A stretch of 64,000 nt of DNA, taken from NCBI RefSeq assembly GCF_988242995.1, contig NZ_OZ547043.1. The stretch is one strand, 5' to 3'. Under the pieces are notes generated by a model. The model ran no database searches, was not told the DNA's origin, and saw only the letters and a program-made list of their open reading frames with translations. This document shows positions 22,038-32,522 of this stretch, piece by piece. The first letter of the stretch is position 1. Each line of letters opens with the position of its first letter. A program made the translations under genes and the position numbers.

Positions 22038-22204
22038 ACCCCCTCCCCCGCATCCTTGTCCGCTTAACCGTTTCAGTCAGCCTATCCTTGATGAAACCGC
22101 GAGCAAAGATAGGTGATTACGTCATGGTTTTACAGAAAATTACAGAAAAAGGAGGCAATATCGGGTAAAGGCATTAGCCCGACGAATACGTCGGGCTACA
22201 AATA

Positions 22205-27369: not shown

Positions 27370-28389
27370 TTACCTGAAAGCAACAGTAGCCATAGCTAAC
27401 GTCGTGTCGAGCATTCTGTTAGCAAAGCCCCATTCGTTATCGCACCAGACCAACGTTTTGATCAGGTGTGCGCCACTGACCCGGGTTTGGGTGCCATCGA
27501 CAATGGCACTGTGCGGATCGTGGTTAAAATCTACAGAGACCAACGGCAATTCCGTATAGTCAACTATACCATGAAATGCACCTTGTGCTGCTTTTTGCAG
27601 CAACAGGTTGACTTCATTGGCTTTTACAGGTTTCTTCACCGTCACGCTTAAATCGATTGCCGTCACATTTATGGTTGGCACACGTACCGCAATCGCTTCA
27701 AAGCGATCGTTAAATTGCGGAAAAAATCGTGTGATACCGGCGGCCAGTTTAGTATCGACCGGAATGATCGACTGGCTGGCTGCCCGGGTGCGACGCAGGT
27801 CAGGATGGTATGCATCAATAACCTGTTGATCGTGCATGGCGGAGTGAATTGTGGTCACAGTGCCGGACTCAATACCGTACGCATCATCTAACAATTTGAT
27901 GACGGGAATTATGCAATTCGTGGTACAGGAAGCGTTAGAAACGATGCGGTGTTCCGCACGAAGTTGATCCTGATTGACGCCGTAAACAACGGTCGCGTCG
28001 AGATCGTTACTGCCAGGATGTGAAAAGAGCACTTTTTTGGCCCCGGCGGCAATATGCGCTTCGCCATGCTCGCGGGAGCCATATACGCCGGTGCAGTCGA
28101 GGACTACATCAACGCCAAGTTCACGCCAGGGGAGCGATTGCAGTGAATGTTCATGCAATACACGGATGGCGTCATCACCAACAAAAAGTTGATCGCGTTC
28201 CTGTCGTACTTCCCATGCAAAACGGCCATGGCTGGTGTCATATTTCAACAAATGCGCCATGCCCGCAGCATCCGCCAGTTCGTTGATTGCCACCACGGTA
28301 ATTTCCGCCCGGCGTCTGGATTCATACAAAGCACGAACCACATTACGCCCGATGCGACCGAAGCCATTTATCGCTACGCGTACGGTCAT
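27370..28389 (-). CDS. epd: D-erythrose-4-phosphate dehydrogenase, 339 aa
   Basis: [24 protein letters not shown]...; GAPDH family; the track ORF carries a 28-codon upstream extension. Confidence 0.95.
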
Positions 28390-28511
28390 AGATCTCCTGC
28401 AAGGTTTTCCCTGAGCAAATTTGCCAGACAGAGTAATCCAGCAAATCGTTCGGGGAAACCTTACCTGTCGCAAACTGCGACTGATTGGTTAATTGTCGAA
28501 CATTTAATCGA

Positions 28512-28525
28512 CTGAAACGCTTCAG
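28512..28525. promoter_or_regulatory. Cra(FruR)-like operator half-palindrome in the epd / ECF-operon divergent control region
   Basis: CTGAAACGCTTCAG resembles the TGAAACGTTTCA-type Cra consensus, about 125 bp upstream of the epd start. Confidence 0.3.
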
Positions 28526-28760
28526 CTAGGATAAGCGAAACGTGGAATAAAAGGAATGATTGTCCAGTCAAAGAAGACAATTATCTGACTTACGTCACGT
28601 TTTCAGCCCCGCCCCTGTGGAATTTATTCCACTTTGCAGAATCACGAATAAGCGTAGCAAAATCTTTTCGTTGTGCCGTCACAAACCCTGACTTATATCA
28701 GAATATGACTGATGCAGCGTCGATATTATCCGCAATACGTCCGAGTTTCGGAGTACTCCA

Positions 28761-29192
28761 ATGATGACATTGCCCTACCCATATTCTTCCTCCGCACGTT
28801 TTTACGCGCTGCGCCTGCTCCCCGGGCAGGAAGTTCTCTCCCAATTACGCGCCTTCGCGCAGCAACAACAACTTCACGCCGCGTGGATTGCAGGTTGTAC
28901 CGGCAGTCTGACTGACGTCGCCTTACGCTATGCCGGGCAAGAAAACACTGCCCTGCTAAGCGGTAAGTTCGAAGTCATCGCATTGAACGGCACGCTGGAA
29001 CAGAGTGGTGAACATCTTCATCTCTGCGTTTCCGATCCACACGGCACGATGCTTGGCGGTCATATGATGCCCGGCTGTACCGTGCGGACCACGCTTGAAC
29101 TGGTGATCGGCTGCCTTGAGGAACTGGCGTTTAGCCGCCAGCCTTGCGCGCTTTCTGGTTACGACGAGTTGCATATTTCCCCCGTTAACTAA
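28761..29192 (+). CDS. PPC/DUF296 domain protein, 143 aa, first gene of the ECF operon
   Basis: GGAG 8-11 nt upstream of the ATG; ...HLHLCVSDPHGTMLGGHMMPGCTVRTTLELVI resembles the PPC (PF03479-type) fold. Confidence 0.65.
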   Translation: MMTLPYPYSSSARFYALRLLPGQEVLSQLRAFAQQQQLHAAWIAGCTGSLTDVALRYAGQENTALLSGKFEVIALNGTLEQSGEHLHLCVSDPHGTMLGGHMMPGCTVRTTLELVIGCLEELAFSRQPCALSGYDELHISPVN

Positions 29193-29214
29193 CTATTTTC
29201 AGAGAGGTTTTCTT

Positions 29215-29793
29215 ATGGCGCGTCGCCACTTTTCCAGTCAGGCGCTGGTGTTAATCGTTATATCTATCGCCATCAATATGATCGGCGGGCAACTGGCCAG
29301 CATGGTCAAATTACCTATATTTCTCGACTCCGTCGGCACACTTATTAGCGCGGTACTGCTTGGTCCGGTGATCGGGATGCTGACCGGCTTACTGACCAAT
29401 TTACTCTGGGGATTGCTGACCGACCCGATCGCCGCCGCATTTGCGCCCGTCGCGATGGTCATCGGCCTGGTCACCGGTTGGCTGGCGCGAGCGGGTTGGT
29501 TCCGCACCCTGCCAAAAGTCGTTGTTAGCGGCGTGATTATTACGCTTGCGGTAACGGTCGTCGCTGTACCGCTGCGTACTGCGCTGTTCGGCGGCGTGAC
29601 AGGAAGCGGAGCCGATTTGTTCGTTGCCTGGATGCACTCGATGGGGCAAAACCTGGTGGAGTCGGTGGCGATTACGGTGATAGGCGCGAACCTGGTCGAT
29701 AAAATTCTCACAGCGGTGATTGTCTGGCTTTTACTGCGTCAGCTGCCGATTCGCACCACGCGCCATTTCCCGGCAATGGCTGCCGTGCGCTAA
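29215..29793 (+). CDS. ECF transporter substrate-capture (S) component, 192 aa, substrate unknown
   Basis: AGAGAGG Shine-Dalgarno before the ATG; small polytopic protein with LPIFLDSVGTLISAVLLGPVIGMLTGLL, the loop motif typical of S components. Confidence 0.65.
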   Translation: MARRHFSSQALVLIVISIAINMIGGQLASMVKLPIFLDSVGTLISAVLLGPVIGMLTGLLTNLLWGLLTDPIAAAFAPVAMVIGLVTGWLARAGWFRTLPKVVVSGVIITLAVTVVAVPLRTALFGGVTGSGADLFVAWMHSMGQNLVESVAITVIGANLVDKILTAVIVWLLLRQLPIRTTRHFPAMAAVR

Positions 29794-30501
29794 ATGCATC
29801 CGTTTACATCCTTAACGCTGTGGGCGCTGGCGGCCTGCACCACGCTTATCCTGCCCACACAGACAATATTGCCAGTCTATAGCGCGGCGACCTTTTTCTG
29901 CCTTATTGCGCTAAAGGCCACGCGGCGGCGGGCAAAATATGTCGTCTGGCTGATGTTCTCGCTGGGGGCTGGACTGTGGTTGGTACACGGTGGCTGGCTG
30001 ACAGAATGGCTAAGCGGCACGCCACGCTCGCCAGAACGGTGGACGCATGCTATTACGCTCTGGTTGCGGATTCTGGCGATTGTTTCAACCTCGCAGTTGT
30101 GGATGCAGTACGTCCCAGTGCAACGTTTTATCCGCGCTTTGTTTGCTTCTCACCTGCCGCCGGGCGTCGCTTATCTGTTCGCCGGGCCGTTGTTGGTCGT
30201 TGAGCAGTTAAAACGGCAATTAGCGATTATTCATGAAGCGCAGCGCGCCCGCGGCGTGCCGCTGGATGAGGGCTGGTATCAGCGTTTACGTGCTATGCCC
30301 GCGCTAATTATTCCGCTAACACACAATGCGCTAAACGATCTGGCTATCCGTGGTGCGGCGCTGGATATGCGGGCATTTCGAATCAACAATAGGCGCACTA
30401 CGTTATGGGCACCAGCCGATAGCACCCTACAACGCGTAGCACGTTACACCATGATCTTGCTGATGCTGGCAGAATTCGGAGCGTGGATATGGTTACGTTA
30501 G
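29794..30501 (+). CDS. ECF transporter transmembrane (T) component, EcfT/CbiQ family, 235 aa
   Basis: ATG directly abuts the S-component stop (TAAATG); polytopic; ARG and IRG coupling-helix motifs. Confidence 0.65.
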   Translation: MHPFTSLTLWALAACTTLILPTQTILPVYSAATFFCLIALKATRRRAKYVVWLMFSLGAGLWLVHGGWLTEWLSGTPRSPERWTHAITLWLRILAIVSTSQLWMQYVPVQRFIRALFASHLPPGVAYLFAGPLLVVEQLKRQLAIIHEAQRARGVPLDEGWYQRLRAMPALIIPLTHNALNDLAIRGAALDMRAFRINNRRTTLWAPADSTLQRVARYTMILLMLAEFGAWIWLR

Positions 30502-31166
30502 AACAGTTCCGCTATTGCCCGACACACTCAACGCATCCTCCGTTCTGTTATGACTTTCACTATGTCAAACCGGGGATGGTCGCCATCTTTGGTGACAACG
30601 GCAGTGGCAAAAGTACGCTGGCGCAGCTGATGGCGGGCTGGTATCCGGACTTTCTACCAGGAGAGATAACCGGCACGGGGACGCTTCTCGGTACGCCCAT
30701 TGGGCGTCTCCCGCTTAATGAACAATCCGCCACCATCCAGCTCGTCCAGCAATCGCCCTATTTGCAGCTCTCCGGCTGTACCTTTAGCGTGGAAGAAGAA
30801 GTTGCCTTTGGGCCAGAAAATCTGTGTCTTGCTGAAAAAGAGATTATGGCGCGGATTGACGCCGCCCTGGCCCTGACCGAGTGCCAGCCGTTGCGCCATC
30901 GTCACCCGGCAACACTCTCCGGTGGAGAGACACAGCGCGTGGTCATCGCCTGCGCCATCGCGATGCAGCCAAAACTCTTAATTCTTGATGAAGCCTTTAG
31001 CCGCCTGACGCCGCAGGCCAGCGAAATGCTGTTGCAGCGCTTACAACACTGGGCGTCTGAACGTGGTTCGCTGATTATTCTTTTTGAACGTCATCGCACA
31101 CCTTTCCTGAACTACTGCCAGCAAGCGTGGCTATTGCAAAACGGAGCGCTCCAGCCACTATGTTAA
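30489..31166 (+). CDS. ECF transporter ATPase component A, ABC-type, about 225 aa
   Basis: Walker A GDNGSGKST, signature LSGGE, Walker B LLILDEA; start overlaps the T gene (a GTG at 30483 is an alternative start). Confidence 0.75.
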   Translation: MVTLEQFRYCPTHSTHPPFCYDFHYVKPGMVAIFGDNGSGKSTLAQLMAGWYPDFLPGEITGTGTLLGTPIGRLPLNEQSATIQLVQQSPYLQLSGCTFSVEEEVAFGPENLCLAEKEIMARIDAALALTECQPLRHRHPATLSGGETQRVVIACAIAMQPKLLILDEAFSRLTPQASEMLLQRLQHWASERGSLIILFERHRTPFLNYCQQAWLLQNGALQPLC

Positions 31167-31837
31167 CGTTAAATCAGATAACTTATCGCTGGCCTGGCGC
31201 GGCAACGGATTGTCTTTGCGACATTTCTCTGCAACTCAAACAAGGTGAATGGTTGGCGCTGACCGGCGACAATGGCGCGGGAAAATCGACGCTGTTACGA
31301 GTAATGGCAGGTCTTCTTACGCCCACAACCGGTACGGTTATGCTGCAACAACAGGCGATGAAAAACCTGAAAAACCGCCAACGTGCAGCAAAGATTGGCG
31401 TACTGTTTCAGGAAGCGGAAAACCAGCTTTTTCACAGCACCGTCGCCGACGAGATCGCATTTGGTTTGAAACTGCAAAAATGCCCGGCGGATGAAATCAC
31501 TCAACGTACCAATGCTGCCCTGCAATGCTGTCAGTTAGCAGACACTGCCAGCGCGCATCCGCTGGATCTGCATAGTGCGCAGCGACGGATGGTCGCCGTC
31601 GCCTGCCTGGAAGCACTCTCTCCGCCGCTATTGCTGCTGGACGAGCCGAGTCGGGATTTTGACGAAAATTGGTTGAGCGTGTTTGAACGCTGGCTGGAAA
31701 AGTGCCGCCAGCGAGGCACGAGCGTCGTAGCAATCAGTCATGACGCCGCATTTACCCGGCGTCATTTCTCTCGTGTGGTGCGACTGGAAGATGGTGTAAT
31801 CAGGAACGTTAATCCACCAGACGATATTCACCCGTAG
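31160..31837 (+). CDS. ECF transporter ATPase component A', ABC-type, 225 aa
   Basis: Walker A GDNGAGKST, Walker B LLLLDEP, H-loop SHD, signature degenerate (LHSAQ); ATG overlaps the component A stop (ATGTTAA). Confidence 0.75.
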   Translation: MLTLNQITYRWPGAATDCLCDISLQLKQGEWLALTGDNGAGKSTLLRVMAGLLTPTTGTVMLQQQAMKNLKNRQRAAKIGVLFQEAENQLFHSTVADEIAFGLKLQKCPADEITQRTNAALQCCQLADTASAHPLDLHSAQRRMVAVACLEALSPPLLLLDEPSRDFDENWLSVFERWLEKCRQRGTSVVAISHDAAFTRRHFSRVVRLEDGVIRNVNPPDDIHP

Positions 31838-32522
31838 CGGTCATCATTAAGGTCAAATTTGCAGGCAGACTCTCTTCCAGCACCCGGCGAACATTCGGCC
31901 CGTCGGTACGGTCATAAAAGTCTTCTGCGTCTGCCAGCGATAACCCTCCCGCCAGCTTTCGCCCCACCAGTCGTTCCCGCAACGCAGTAGCTGGCGCGTT
32001 GATAAAGATAGAGAAATCACAAAATTGCGCAAGCTGGCACCACTTCTCGTCGTCCAGCAACAACCAGTTTCCTTCGACGATGACGAGTGGTGCGGTAACG
32101 TGCAGCGCATCTTCAACAGGATCATGCTTTTGTCGATCGTACTGCGGCCACGTACAATCCCCTTCCACGACCTGGCGCAGATTTTCCGCCAGTTTCGCAA
32201 CGTCAAATGTCTCTGGTGCGCCTTTGAAGGGGCGCAATTGATGCGCATCCAGCCAGCTATTGTAATGGTGAAAACCATCCATCGGTAGCGTCTGAATAGC
32301 GGGCAGTTCCGGGTCTTGTTGCGCGATATATTCCCAGAAGGTGGTTAGGGTAGATTTACCCGTCCCCGGCGGAGCGCAAAGAAAAACCACCGTACGCCGC
32401 TGCGGATTTACCGTCTGTAAGGCCGCCAACATGTGCAGCAACGGTTTATGTACATTTTCAATCTCTTCGTTCTGGTACTGTGCCTGTATCTTCAGCCCAT
32501 TCACCGTTAATTCAATTTTCAC
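31809..32522 (-). CDS. yggC: P-loop nucleoside/pantothenate-kinase-like protein YggC, 237 aa
   Basis: Walker A APPGTGKST; matches YggC. Confidence 0.85.
   Translation of the reverse strand: MKIELTVNGLKIQAQYQNEEIENVHKPLLHMLAALQTVNPQRRTVVFLCAPPGTGKSTLTTFWEYIAQQDPELPAIQTLPMDGFHHYNSWLDAHQLRPFKGAPETFDVAKLAENLRQVVEGDCTWPQYDRQKHDPVEDALHVTAPLVIVEGNWLLLDDEKWCQLAQFCDFSIFINAPATALRERLVGRKLAGGLSLADAEDFYDRTDGPNVRRVLEESLPANLTLMMTATGEYRLVD

What the first reader, a model, noticed from the sequence alone, without database searches (positions are those of the whole stretch)
28390..28760. Shared 370-bp control region between epd and the ECF operon
The region holds a Cra-like site (CTGAAACGCTTCAG, 28512-28525), a perfect 14-bp palindrome (TGGAATTTATTCCA, 28618-28631) and a second GTGGAAT copy about 75 bp away (28542-28548). 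ECF transporters are often riboswitch-controlled, but I could not recognise any known riboswitch fold in the 5' leader. Control is therefore more likely by a protein factor, and possibly tied to the glycolytic epd-pgk-fbaA promoter.
Basis: seen in the sequence. Interest (0 to 1): 0.35.

Follow-up and report, generated by a model that had tools for sequence, protein, structure and literature searches.

The report
Known divergent epd and lmiA promoters
This 370-bp gap in E. coli holds two promoters that are already mapped and point in opposite directions: the Cra/CRP-controlled glycolytic epd promoter and the PhoP-activated lmiA-ECF transporter promoter. It has no riboswitch, and comparison across species adds one new prediction, a second oxygen-limitation-type promoter next to lmiA.

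Summary
All three motifs are at the stated coordinates. The "perfect 14-bp palindrome" is really GTGGAAT-TT-ATTCCAC, with 7-nt arms and a 2-nt spacer. That palindrome and the repeated GTGGAAT are at chance level.

The window is E. coli carrying O-island 119. The Cra-like site is the known Cra operator of the epd-pgk-fbaA promoter and spans the published epd start (28521). GTGGAAT copy 1 lies in that promoter's -35/-10 spacer.

The "ECF operon" is lmiA (z4267) plus four ECF genes. Published O157 work, on a gap 3 bases different from this one, maps an lmiA start 90 nt upstream of the ATG (28671) and a PhoP footprint at 28589-28607. That footprint overlaps the best CRP-type site of epd.

No Rfam family matches, and the leader has no conserved multi-helix fold.

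New here: a module is kept at near-constant spacing (±1 nt) in all 40 loci (about 36 species) where its 3' repeat could be anchored, including three Buttiauxella loci where tblastn found no epd. It is CTGAT-N4-ATCAG (28688-28701), 22 nt, TAnnAT (28724-28729), 7 nt, ACGTCCGAG-N-CTCGGAGT (28737-28754). I read it as a proximal CRP/FNR-type class II promoter. This fits published induction of the operon under oxygen limitation in O157 Sakai and Salmonella.

Control by protein factors is right. The link to Cra and the palindromes is not supported.

The parts
28387..28389 (-). epd start codon (ATG on the minus strand)
   Evidence: RefSeq annotation of identical DNA and ORF list.
28390..28521 (-). epd 5' UTR, 132 nt. 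The published epd transcription start maps to 28521.
   Evidence: PMC2759082 places the start 132 nt from the ATG. Its promoter string ...TTATTCCACGTTTCGCTTATCCTAGCTGAA matches the reverse complement of the window here.
28511..28526 (.). Cra (FruR) operator of the epd-pgk-fbaA promoter, spanning about -5 to +11 of epd
   Evidence: Exact consensus match. Invariant across genera. ChIP-exo shows Cra covering the -10 box and the start (PMC5888115).
28528..28533 (-). epd -10 hexamer TATCCT
   Evidence: Position counted from the published start. Inferred hexamer.
28542..28548 (.). GTGGAAT copy 1. It is the spacer of the epd core promoter, at -27 to -21.
   Evidence: Only GGAAT is conserved. The repeat is at chance level.
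28584..28599 (.). CRP-type site TCTGACTTACGTCACG, centred at -70.5 of epd
   Evidence: Best match to TGTGA-N6-TCACA in the interval, with 2 mismatches. Conserved in all genera. The literature says CRP acts as class I upstream of the core promoter. The exact site assignment is my inference.
28589..28607 (+). Published PhoP DNase I footprint CTTACGTCACGTTTTCAGC, at -82 to -64 of lmiA P1
   Evidence: PMC7667037. The sequence is identical in the window and in O157.
28610..28611 (.). Boundary where K-12-type genomes stop matching. To the right the haplotypes differ until about 32075.
28617..28632 (.). Inverted repeat GTGGAAT-TT-ATTCCAC, at -54 to -39 of lmiA P1. No evidence of function.
   Evidence: I8. 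Chance level. The left arm is not conserved outside Escherichia.
28634..28639 (+). Published lmiA P1 -35 element (TTGCAG)
   Evidence: PMC7667037.
28655..28663 (+). Published lmiA P1 -10 element (TAGCAAAAT)
   Evidence: PMC7667037. Conserved in Escherichia, Citrobacter and Klebsiella but not in Salmonella, Atlantibacter or Superficieibacter.
28671..28671 (+). Published lmiA P1 transcription start, a T 90 nt upstream of the ATG
   Evidence: Primer extension in PMC7667037. 28761 minus 90 is 28671, which is a T.
28688..28701 (.). Conserved CRP/FNR-type inverted repeat. It reads CTGACTTATATCAG here and CTGATTTATATCAG in most genera.
   Evidence: The TGA-N6-TCA core is invariant in the 19 representative sequences aligned. 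It is the only copy in the 64-kb window. Of the 84 loci held, 28 carry the exact pattern, once each and always at this position. There is a fixed 35-nt gap (±1 nt) to ACGTCC.
28724..28729 (+). Predicted P2 -10 hexamer TATTAT
   Evidence: Read by eye from the aligned sequences, every one of the 40 anchored loci has TAnnAT here: TATTAT, TATCAT, TATGAT, TAAAAT, TAAGAT or TAGAAT. It lies 22 nt after the repeat.
28736..28737 (+). Predicted P2 transcription start. This puts the repeat centre at -41.5 or -42.5.
   Evidence: Arithmetic. Not mapped experimentally.
28737..28754 (+). Conserved inverted repeat ACGTCCGAGTTTCGGAGT. It is either a 5-bp RNA hairpin holding the Shine-Dalgarno GGAG (28750-28753) or a DNA operator.
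   Evidence: 90% of cells are paired, with two compensatory changes. The hairpin is weak, at -5 to -8 kcal/mol.
28761..29192 (+). lmiA (z4267/ECs3799), a PPC/DUF296-domain protein and first gene of the operon
   Evidence: Pfam PF03479. PDB 2hx0 and 2nmu. Sakai annotation. PMC7667037.
29215..31837 (+). ECF transporter genes: S (29215-29793), T (29794-30501), A (30489-31166) and A' (31160-31837)
   Evidence: Pfam. RefSeq annotation. The gene order is conserved in about 80 species.

Best explanation
The interval is a back-to-back pair of control regions, and both are already characterised.

Leftward, shown in K-12:
- The sigma-70 epd-pgk-fbaA promoter starts at 28521.
- Cra represses it by sitting on the start site and the -10 box.
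- CRP activates it from an upstream class I site.

Rightward, shown in O157:H7:
- The lmiA-ecfSTAA' operon (O-island 119) is transcribed from P1 at 28671.
- PhoP activates P1 from a site at 28589-28607. That site overlaps the epd CRP-type site.

Inferred here:
- The evolutionarily conserved driver of the operon is a second, proximal promoter, P2.
- P2 has a CRP/FNR-family dimer site (TGA-N6-TCA core, 28688-28701) centred 41.5-42.5 bp upstream of a start near 28736/7.
- It has no usable -35 element and a good -10 element (TAnnAT).
- Its 24-nt leader begins with a conserved inverted repeat that contains the ribosome-binding site.
- FNR is the most likely activator, which would make the operon respond to oxygen limitation.

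The leader is too short and too unstructured for a riboswitch. The GTGGAAT palindrome and repeat have no demonstrable role.
For: Known parts:
- The epd promoter string and the -132 start.
- Cra over the -10 box and start, and CRP acting as class I.
- lmiA start, PhoP footprint, EMSA, ChIP-qPCR and the phoP deletion.
- The O157 intergenic DNA differs from the window at only 3 positions.

P2:
- In 40 loci (about 36 species) the repeat, the TAnnAT hexamer and ACGTCCGAG...CTCGGAGT keep near-constant spacing (±1 nt).
- In Buttiauxella L031, L036 and L041, where tblastn found no epd, sequence resembling P1 is missing upstream and the recognisable module starts at or just before the repeat.
- The hexamer varies only at its less critical positions.
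- The 22-nt gap to the -10 element is the arithmetic of a -41.5 class II site. That is the commonest position for FNR activation (PMC3688515).
- The published P1 -10 element is not conserved in Salmonella, Atlantibacter or Superficieibacter, while P2 is conserved everywhere it could be anchored.

Expression:
- In O157 Sakai, ECs3799, ECs3800 and ECs3802 rise by log2 2.3-2.9 when dissolved oxygen collapses. They cluster with yfiD, pflB, narK and nrdD, and they fall again when the culture enters stationary phase (locus tags confirmed).
- The Salmonella orthologues are reported as anaerobically activated.

No riboswitch:
- Rfam finds nothing here or in 17 distant loci.
- RNAalifold on the leader finds only the two small local hairpins, with a covariation term of about 0.
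Against: - No transcription start has been mapped at 28736/7. The only published start is at 28671, so all P2 elements lie inside a transcribed 90-nt leader. They could act as RNA or as operators instead.
- The repeat is a poor FNR site. With a matrix built from 63 ChIP-supported FNR sites it scores 6.0 bits in E. coli and 7.9 bits for the consensus. That thresholded set scores 11.8 bits or more, and such scores occur by chance once per 0.7-1.8 kb.
- The conserved outer C/G is the base FNR favours least. No species has TTGAT or ATCAA.
- No dependence on FNR has been shown for this operon in any organism. Induction under oxygen limitation could come through ArcA or be indirect.
- Hairpin covariation rests on only two independent events.
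Confidence: 0.6

Rival explanations
1. There is only the published promoter P1 (start at 28671). The conserved repeat, the TAnnAT hexamer and the ACGTCCGAG...CTCGGAGT repeat are elements of its 90-nt leader. They could be two small RNA hairpins that set mRNA stability or ribosome access, since the second one sequesters GGAG. Or they could be DNA operators for a repressor acting as a roadblock, possibly LmiA itself or a ligand-sensing factor.
For: Primer extension found its major product at -90. Both palindromes can form hairpins, and the second shows two compensatory changes and tolerates a change in loop length. Sequence conservation of the second repeat is stronger than a 5-bp stem needs, which suggests that a protein recognises it.
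Against: - The hairpins are weak, with z-scores from -0.95 to +1.3 against shuffled sequence.
- The first stem never covaries, and its fifth pair is broken in E. coli itself.
- The TAnnAT pattern, 7 nt before a conserved A, is what a -10 element predicts and not what an RNA motif predicts.
- In Buttiauxella the module survives without any P1-like sequence upstream.
- The P1 -10 element is not conserved in Salmonella, yet the operon is anaerobically induced there.
Confidence: 0.25
2. The Cra-like site and the GTGGAAT palindrome and repeat form a shared operator set that couples the ECF operon to the glycolytic epd promoter.
For: The Cra site is real and conserved. The palindrome lies at -54 to -39 of lmiA P1, a position from which a factor could act. 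The interval does hold one site used by both sides, the overlapping PhoP and CRP sites.
Against: - The Cra site overlaps the epd start. It lies 150 bp from P1 and 215 bp from P2, too far for direct occlusion.
- The left arm of the palindrome is not conserved outside Escherichia, and the repeated 7-mer is at chance level.
- K-12-type strains keep the Cra site and GTGGAAT copy 1 without having the ECF operon.
Confidence: 0.07
3. An unrecognised riboswitch or other structured cis-regulatory RNA in the lmiA leader senses the transporter's substrate.
For: ECF transporters are often controlled by riboswitches. A 90-nt leader exists and has conserved blocks.
Against: - There is no Rfam hit at E up to 10 on the plus strand.
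- There is none in 17 distant loci carrying the same operon.
- The consensus fold is -5.5 kcal/mol with no covariation, and the region between the two blocks is freely variable.
- The P2 leader would be only 24 nt long.
Confidence: 0.03

Closest known systems
[quoted passage not shown]
   Same: The DNA up to 28610 is 98.9% identical over the 1.8-kb BLAST segment 26800-28610. It has the same start site, the same Cra operator over the start and the same upstream CRP-type site.
   Different: In this haplotype the upstream neighbour is the divergent lmiA-ECF operon rather than yggC. The CRP half-site reads CGTGA where K-12 has TGTGA.
lmiA (z4267) promoter of O-island 119 in EHEC O157:H7, activated by PhoP (Liu et al. 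2020, mBio)
   Same: It is the same locus. The footprint, the -35 and -10 elements and the start-site base are all present unchanged. Only 3 substitutions occur in the whole intergenic region.
   Different: This window is from a non-O157 E. coli whose PPC protein is 100% identical to that of strain AR_0013 (the DNA match is 99.8%). The published model has a single promoter and treats the island as horizontally acquired. Comparative data point to an ancestral operon and a second, more conserved promoter.
Class II FNR-dependent promoters (narG, nirB, dmsA, ydfZ, nikABCDE)
   Same: An inverted repeat with a TGAT-N4-ATCA core lies 22 nt upstream of a good -10 element, which puts the centre near -41.5. 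There is no -35 element. The operon is induced when oxygen runs out, in the same expression cluster as known FNR targets. The nik promoter also combines FNR with a second operator near the start (the nik detail is from memory).
   Different: The outer bases are C/G instead of T/A on both sides, and this is conserved. The matrix score falls below that of bona fide high-quality sites. No FNR binding, no fnr dependence and no mapped start are available.

Membership tests
Cra (FruR) operator | Match to the asymmetric Cra consensus RSTGAAWCSNTHHW (consensus recalled from memory) | tested here: met
   Exact match at 28511-28524. There are 2 exact matches in 64 kb against 0.5 expected.
Cra (FruR) operator | A position from which it can repress: overlapping the -10 box and the start of the regulated promoter | tested here: met
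   It spans the published epd start at 28521. ChIP-exo in K-12 shows Cra covering the -10 box and the start.
Cra (FruR) operator | An effect on the plus-strand (lmiA-ECF) operon | not testable with these tools
   The geometry argues against it: 150 bp to P1 and 215 bp to P2. No cra-mutant expression data were found for lmiA.
Riboswitch or structured cis-regulatory RNA | A hit to a curated covariance model | tested here: not met
   Rfam 15 with permissive filters gave nothing on the plus strand in 27800-29800. It gave nothing in 17 distant loci with the same operon.
Riboswitch or structured cis-regulatory RNA | A conserved multi-helix fold with covariation | tested here: not met
   RNAalifold on 19 leaders finds two hairpins of 4-5 bp, -5.55 kcal/mol, with a covariation term of -0.02.
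Class II FNR-activated promoter | A TTGAT-N4-ATCAA inverted repeat | tested here: inconclusive
   7/10 in E. coli and 8/10 in most genera. The matrix scores are 6.0 and 7.9 bits against 11.8 bits or more for 63 ChIP-supported sites. The outer C/G is disfavoured by FNR yet conserved.
Class II FNR-activated promoter | Site centred about 41.5 bp upstream of the start, a good -10 element and a poor -35 element | tested here: inconclusive
   The geometry is met relative to the predicted start: a 22-nt gap to TAnnAT, constant to within ±1 nt across 40 loci. The start itself is not mapped. The consensus promoter scan finds no -35/-10 pair.
Class II FNR-activated promoter | Induction by anaerobiosis or oxygen limitation | tested here: met
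   From the literature. ECs3799, ECs3800 and ECs3802 rise by log2 2.3-2.9 at oxygen depletion in Sakai. The Salmonella operon is reported as anaerobically activated.
Class II FNR-activated promoter | FNR binding and loss of induction in an fnr mutant | not testable with these tools
   FNR ChIP data exist only for K-12, which lacks this DNA. There is no FNR peak near epd in that data set.
PhoP-activated promoter (published lmiA P1) | The published footprint, the -35 and -10 elements and the start-site base are present in this DNA | tested here: met
   CTTACGTCACGTTTTCAGC at 28589-28607, TTGCAG at 28634-28639, TAGCAAAAT at 28655-28663 and a T at 28671.
PhoP-activated promoter (published lmiA P1) | Direct-repeat PhoP box (T/G)GTTTA-N5-(T/G)GTTTA | tested here: inconclusive
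   GACTTA-CGTCA-CGTTTT matches 8 of 12 positions by my count. The authors count 3 mismatches. The same bases form the conserved CRP-type site, so their conservation cannot be credited to PhoP.
LacI/GalR-type operator (reading of the GTGGAAT-TT-ATTCCAC palindrome) | Both half-sites conserved in orthologous regions | tested here: not met
   The left arm differs in every genus outside Escherichia. The central CG typical of the family is absent.

The most novel reading that the evidence does not exclude
The lmiA-ECF operon is described as a horizontally acquired, PhoP-controlled EHEC virulence island. In this reading it is an ancestral Enterobacteriaceae operon whose conserved driver is an unmapped proximal promoter. 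A CRP/FNR-family factor turns that promoter on under oxygen limitation through an atypical, strictly conserved CTGAT-N4-ATCAG box at -41.5. A conserved inverted repeat at +1 to +18 adds a second, substrate-specific layer of control. LmiA-dependent control of virulence and acid resistance in EHEC would then be wired to oxygen as well as to magnesium.
Probability: 0.45. Interest if true: 0.4.

Novelty: already known. Interest (0 to 1): 0.22.

Why it matters
The finding as written adds nothing new. The Cra operator and both promoters are published, and the highlighted palindromes are chance-level.

Three smaller points are useful:
- LmiA is a reported activator of LEE and gad genes in EHEC. If its operon also has a conserved promoter responsive to oxygen limitation, the current model that magnesium acts alone is incomplete. 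This is easy to test.
- The PhoP footprint overlaps the CRP-type site of a glycolytic promoter, so PhoP and CRP may compete there. That would link Mg2+ sensing to expression of epd-pgk-fbaA.
- "O-island 119" is present in 61% of complete E. coli genomes. It occupies the same position in more than 25 other Enterobacteriaceae species, so it is better seen as ancestral DNA replaced in K-12-type strains.

Tried and rejected
- **Riboswitch.** Rfam with permissive thresholds on the region and at gathering thresholds on 17 distant loci found nothing. RNAalifold on the leader found no fold.
- **Consensus sigma-70 scan.** No promoters were called in 28300-29300. The tool needs 9 of 12 matches, so it misses both the published promoters and the activator-dependent one.
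- **Palindrome and GTGGAAT repeat as operators.** Rejected on chance statistics and lack of conservation.
- **Local regulator gene.** Neighbours of the operon in non-epd contexts, judged by eye from the ORF translations, look like PTS, tmcA, aldolase, xthA, dcp and oxidoreductase genes. No conserved transcription factor appears among them.
- **Other regulators for the repeat.** I compared CTGAT-N4-ATCAG by eye with remembered consensus sites for LexA, Fur, ArgR, IscR, NarL, ModE and NikR. None fits in length or spacing.
- **FNR matrix.** Built from Myers et al. Table S6. The site scores below threshold, so I do not claim membership.
- **Mapped starts in Salmonella.** The Kroger 2012 and Fink 2007 papers are not held.
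- **STM3071-75 text search.** It gave only a thesis citation and a sigma-54 ChIP hit inside STM3072.

Full report
**What the window is**

The ORFs around the finding are mscS, fbaA, pgk and epd on the minus strand. They are followed on the plus strand by a PPC/DUF296-domain gene, an ECF S component, an ECF T component and two ABC ATPases. After those come yggC, fumE and glpX on the minus strand. A megablast of 28300-28900 hits 5425 of 5426 complete E. coli genomes. Of these, 3328 carry the whole stretch. The rest, which are K-12-like, match only up to about 28610. In K-12-type genomes yggC follows epd directly.

**Checking the observation**

The three motifs are at the stated coordinates. The "perfect 14-bp palindrome" is not perfect. 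It is GTGGAAT/ATTCCAC (28617-28632) around a TT spacer.

- An inverted repeat of that quality occurs in 13% of random sequences with the same length and composition.
- The segment holds 7 repeated 7-mer pairs against 5.7 expected, so the second GTGGAAT copy is chance-level.
- The Cra-like site matches the Cra consensus exactly.
- A permissive Rfam scan finds no RNA family on the plus strand.

**The minus-strand half is the known epd promoter**

Olvera et al. (PMC2759082) list the epd promoter as ACATTCCTTTTATTCCACGTTTCGCTTATCCTAGCTGAA, with a start 132 nt from the ATG and with FruR (Cra) and Crp as regulators. The reverse complement of the window matches this string at all but its first base. 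That puts the start at 28521, the -10 element TATCCT at 28528-28533, and GTGGAAT copy 1 at -27 to -21, in the spacer.

The Cra-like site spans the start. Kim et al. (PMC5888115) report from ChIP-exo that Cra covers the -10 box and the start of epd, and that CRP binds upstream as a class I activator. The best CRP-type match in the interval is TCTGACTTACGTCACG at 28584-28599, centred at -70.5. It is conserved in every genus examined. Assigning CRP to this exact site is my inference.

**The plus-strand half is the published lmiA promoter**

A locus-tag search led to Liu et al. 2020 (PMC7667037). O-island 119 of O157:H7 consists of z4267 to z4271. Gene z4267, named lmiA, encodes the DUF296 protein.

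That paper reports:
- a start at a T 90 nt upstream of the ATG, found by primer extension;
- a -35 element TTGCAG and a -10 element TAGCAAAAT;
- a PhoP DNase I footprint CTTACGTCACGTTTTCAGC at -82 to -64;
- support from EMSA, ChIP-qPCR and reduced lmiA mRNA in a phoP mutant.

All these sequences are present unchanged in the window: start at 28671, -35 at 28634-28639, -10 at 28655-28663 and footprint at 28589-28607. The O157 intergenic DNA differs from the window at only three positions. The Sakai annotation confirms ECs3799 as lmiA and ECs3800-3803 as the ECF genes.

The PhoP footprint overlaps the CRP-type site of epd. This is the only element plausibly shared by the two promoters. By my count the proposed PhoP box matches 8 of 12 consensus positions, and the footprints used micromolar PhoP, so some caution is warranted.

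**Comparative analysis**

A profile of the PPC protein retrieved 80 loci from different species. The five-gene order PPC-S-T-A-A' is kept in Enterobacterales, Aeromonas, Neisseriales, Ferrimonas and alpha-proteobacteria. In most of the Enterobacteriaceae loci retrieved it lies divergently next to epd.

An alignment of 30 epd-PPC intergenic regions, plus the window and an identical strain, shows the following conserved blocks:
- the epd leader;
- the Cra site with the -10 element;
- GGAATAAAAGGAAT;
- the CRP-type site;
- TTATTCCA-ATTCCAGAAT;
- GAATAAGCGTAGCAA..AT..TTTCGTTG, which holds the P1 -10 element and start;
- CCTGATTTATATCAGAAA;
- TAT.AT;
- ACGTCCGAGTCTCGGAGT.

**A conserved proximal module**

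I anchored on the 3' inverted repeat ACGTCCGAG...CGGAG, which a pattern search found in 40 loci from about 36 species, including Salmonella. In 36 of them the search also picked up the CTGAT-N4-ATCAG-type repeat, ending 35 nt (±1 nt) before the A of ACGTCC. The other four carry diverged versions of the repeat, such as GTGAT, ATGAT or GTGAC half-sites, which I recognised by eye.

Reading the same aligned sequences by eye, every one of the 40 loci has a hexamer 22 nt after the repeat and 6-8 nt before the A. It is always TAnnAT: TATTAT, TATCAT, TATGAT, TAAAAT, TAAGAT or TAGAAT.

Further points:
- In Buttiauxella L031, L036 and L041, tblastn found no epd on the locus and nothing resembling P1 lies upstream. 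The module still survives there, and the recognisable similarity starts at or just before the repeat.
- The exact pattern CTGATNNNNATCAG is present in 28 of the 84 loci held, once each and always at this position. The window version is the only match in 64 kb.
- By contrast, the published P1 -10 hexamer loses its key A at position 2 in Salmonella, Atlantibacter, Superficieibacter and others.

A -10 element at 28724-28729 predicts a start at 28736/7. The repeat centre (28694.5) then falls at -41.5 or -42.5, and there is no -35 element. This is the standard geometry of a class II CRP/FNR-dependent promoter. Position -41.5 is the commonest one for FNR activation (PMC3688515).

**Which factor acts at the repeat**

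The invariant core TGA-N6-TCA is common to CRP and FNR sites. The base that tells the two apart is G for CRP and T for FNR. Here it is a conserved C.

I built a matrix from the 63 ChIP-supported FNR sites in Myers et al. Table S6. The site scores 6.0 bits in E. coli and 7.9 bits for the consensus. That thresholded set scores 11.8 bits or more. On sequence alone, the FNR assignment is therefore inconclusive.

Expression data favour an oxygen-responsive factor:
- In O157 Sakai, ECs3799, ECs3800 and ECs3802 rose by log2 2.3-2.9 exactly when dissolved oxygen collapsed. They fell into the same cluster as yfiD, pflB, narK, nrdD and adhE. They dropped again by log2 2.4-2.7 on entry to stationary phase (PMC2241611).
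- The Salmonella orthologues are described as anaerobically activated and grouped with FNR targets (PMC11481890).
- K-12 FNR ChIP shows no peak near epd, as expected because K-12 lacks this DNA.

**The repeat at +1 to +18**

ACGTCCGAGTTTCGGAGT (28737-28754) can form a 5-bp hairpin whose 3' arm holds the Shine-Dalgarno GGAG.

- 90% of cells pair, and two independent compensatory changes occur: A-U to G-C in Superficieibacter and C-G to G-C in Pseudescherichia.
- The loop length varies.
- The stem is weak and no better than shuffled sequence.
- Its sequence is conserved beyond what pairing needs, so a DNA or RNA protein-binding site remains possible.
- In two Buttiauxella species the repeat lies about 130 nt upstream of the start codon. 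Its role therefore does not depend on supplying the ribosome-binding site.

**No riboswitch**

The P2 leader would be 24 nt long. The 90-nt P1 leader has no conserved fold beyond the two small hairpins, at -5.55 kcal/mol with a covariation term near zero. Seventeen distant loci carrying the same operon have no Rfam cis-regulatory hit.

**Verdict**

The third is the textbook Cra operator of epd. The interpretation that protein factors and not a riboswitch control the operon is correct and already demonstrated for PhoP. Coupling to Cra is not supported.

The region is already known. The one new, testable prediction is a conserved proximal CRP/FNR-type promoter that would explain the operon's induction under oxygen limitation.

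Noticed in passing
window 28611-32075; loci L003-L034, L083: The published work treats O-island 119 (lmiA plus ECF genes) as a horizontally acquired EHEC/EPEC island. It is present in 3328 of 5426 complete E. coli genomes. It also sits at the same epd-adjacent position in Salmonella, Citrobacter, Klebsiella, Kluyvera, Leclercia, Atlantibacter and others. It therefore looks ancestral and lost from K-12-type strains.
   Followed up: partly
window 31878-32075 (3' end of yggC) compared with L001 1944-2140: The K-12-type haplotype is not a clean deletion. The last roughly 200 nt of yggC are only about 60-73% identical between the two haplotypes, while the flanks are over 97% identical. This suggests allelic replacement by recombination with a divergent donor.
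   Followed up: partly
window 28584-28607: The published PhoP footprint for lmiA overlaps the conserved CRP-type site centred at -70.5 of the epd promoter. PhoP and CRP may compete there, which would link Mg2+ sensing to glycolytic gene expression. By my count the PhoP box matches only 8 of 12 consensus positions.
   Followed up: partly
window 28761-29192 (LmiA) and alignment A1: The PPC protein family has invariant His85, His87, His101, Cys46 and Cys129, and Glu84. Cys106 is nearly invariant. The protein is always the first gene of a dedicated ECF operon, from gamma- to alpha-proteobacteria. That pattern fits a metal- or ligand-handling partner of the transporter at least as well as a dedicated virulence regulator. 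Structures of close homologues exist (PDB 2hx0, 2nmu).
   Followed up: partly
window 31809-31837: The second ATPase gene (31160-31837, plus strand) and yggC (31809-32522, minus strand) overlap convergently by 29 nt at their 3' ends.
   Followed up: no
window 22064-22077 (minus strand): The only other exact match to the Cra consensus in the 64-kb window is ACTGAAACGGTTAA. I did not examine its context.
   Followed up: no
L053, L059, L060, L061, L051 (Providencia), about 110 nt upstream of the PPC start: In Providencia the same operon is preceded by a near-consensus sigma-70 promoter (CAGACA, 16-17 nt, TATAAT) and a leader of about 100 nt. The CTGAT-N4-ATCAG module is absent, so control of the operon has been rewired between families.
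   Followed up: no
L076, L078, L079 (Rhizobiales), immediately upstream of the PPC gene: In alpha-proteobacteria the operon follows a large FAD-dependent oxidoreductase gene, identified only by eye from its translation (opine/sarcosine-oxidase-like, with a C-terminal CxGRxCG motif). This may be a clue to the unknown substrate.
   Followed up: no
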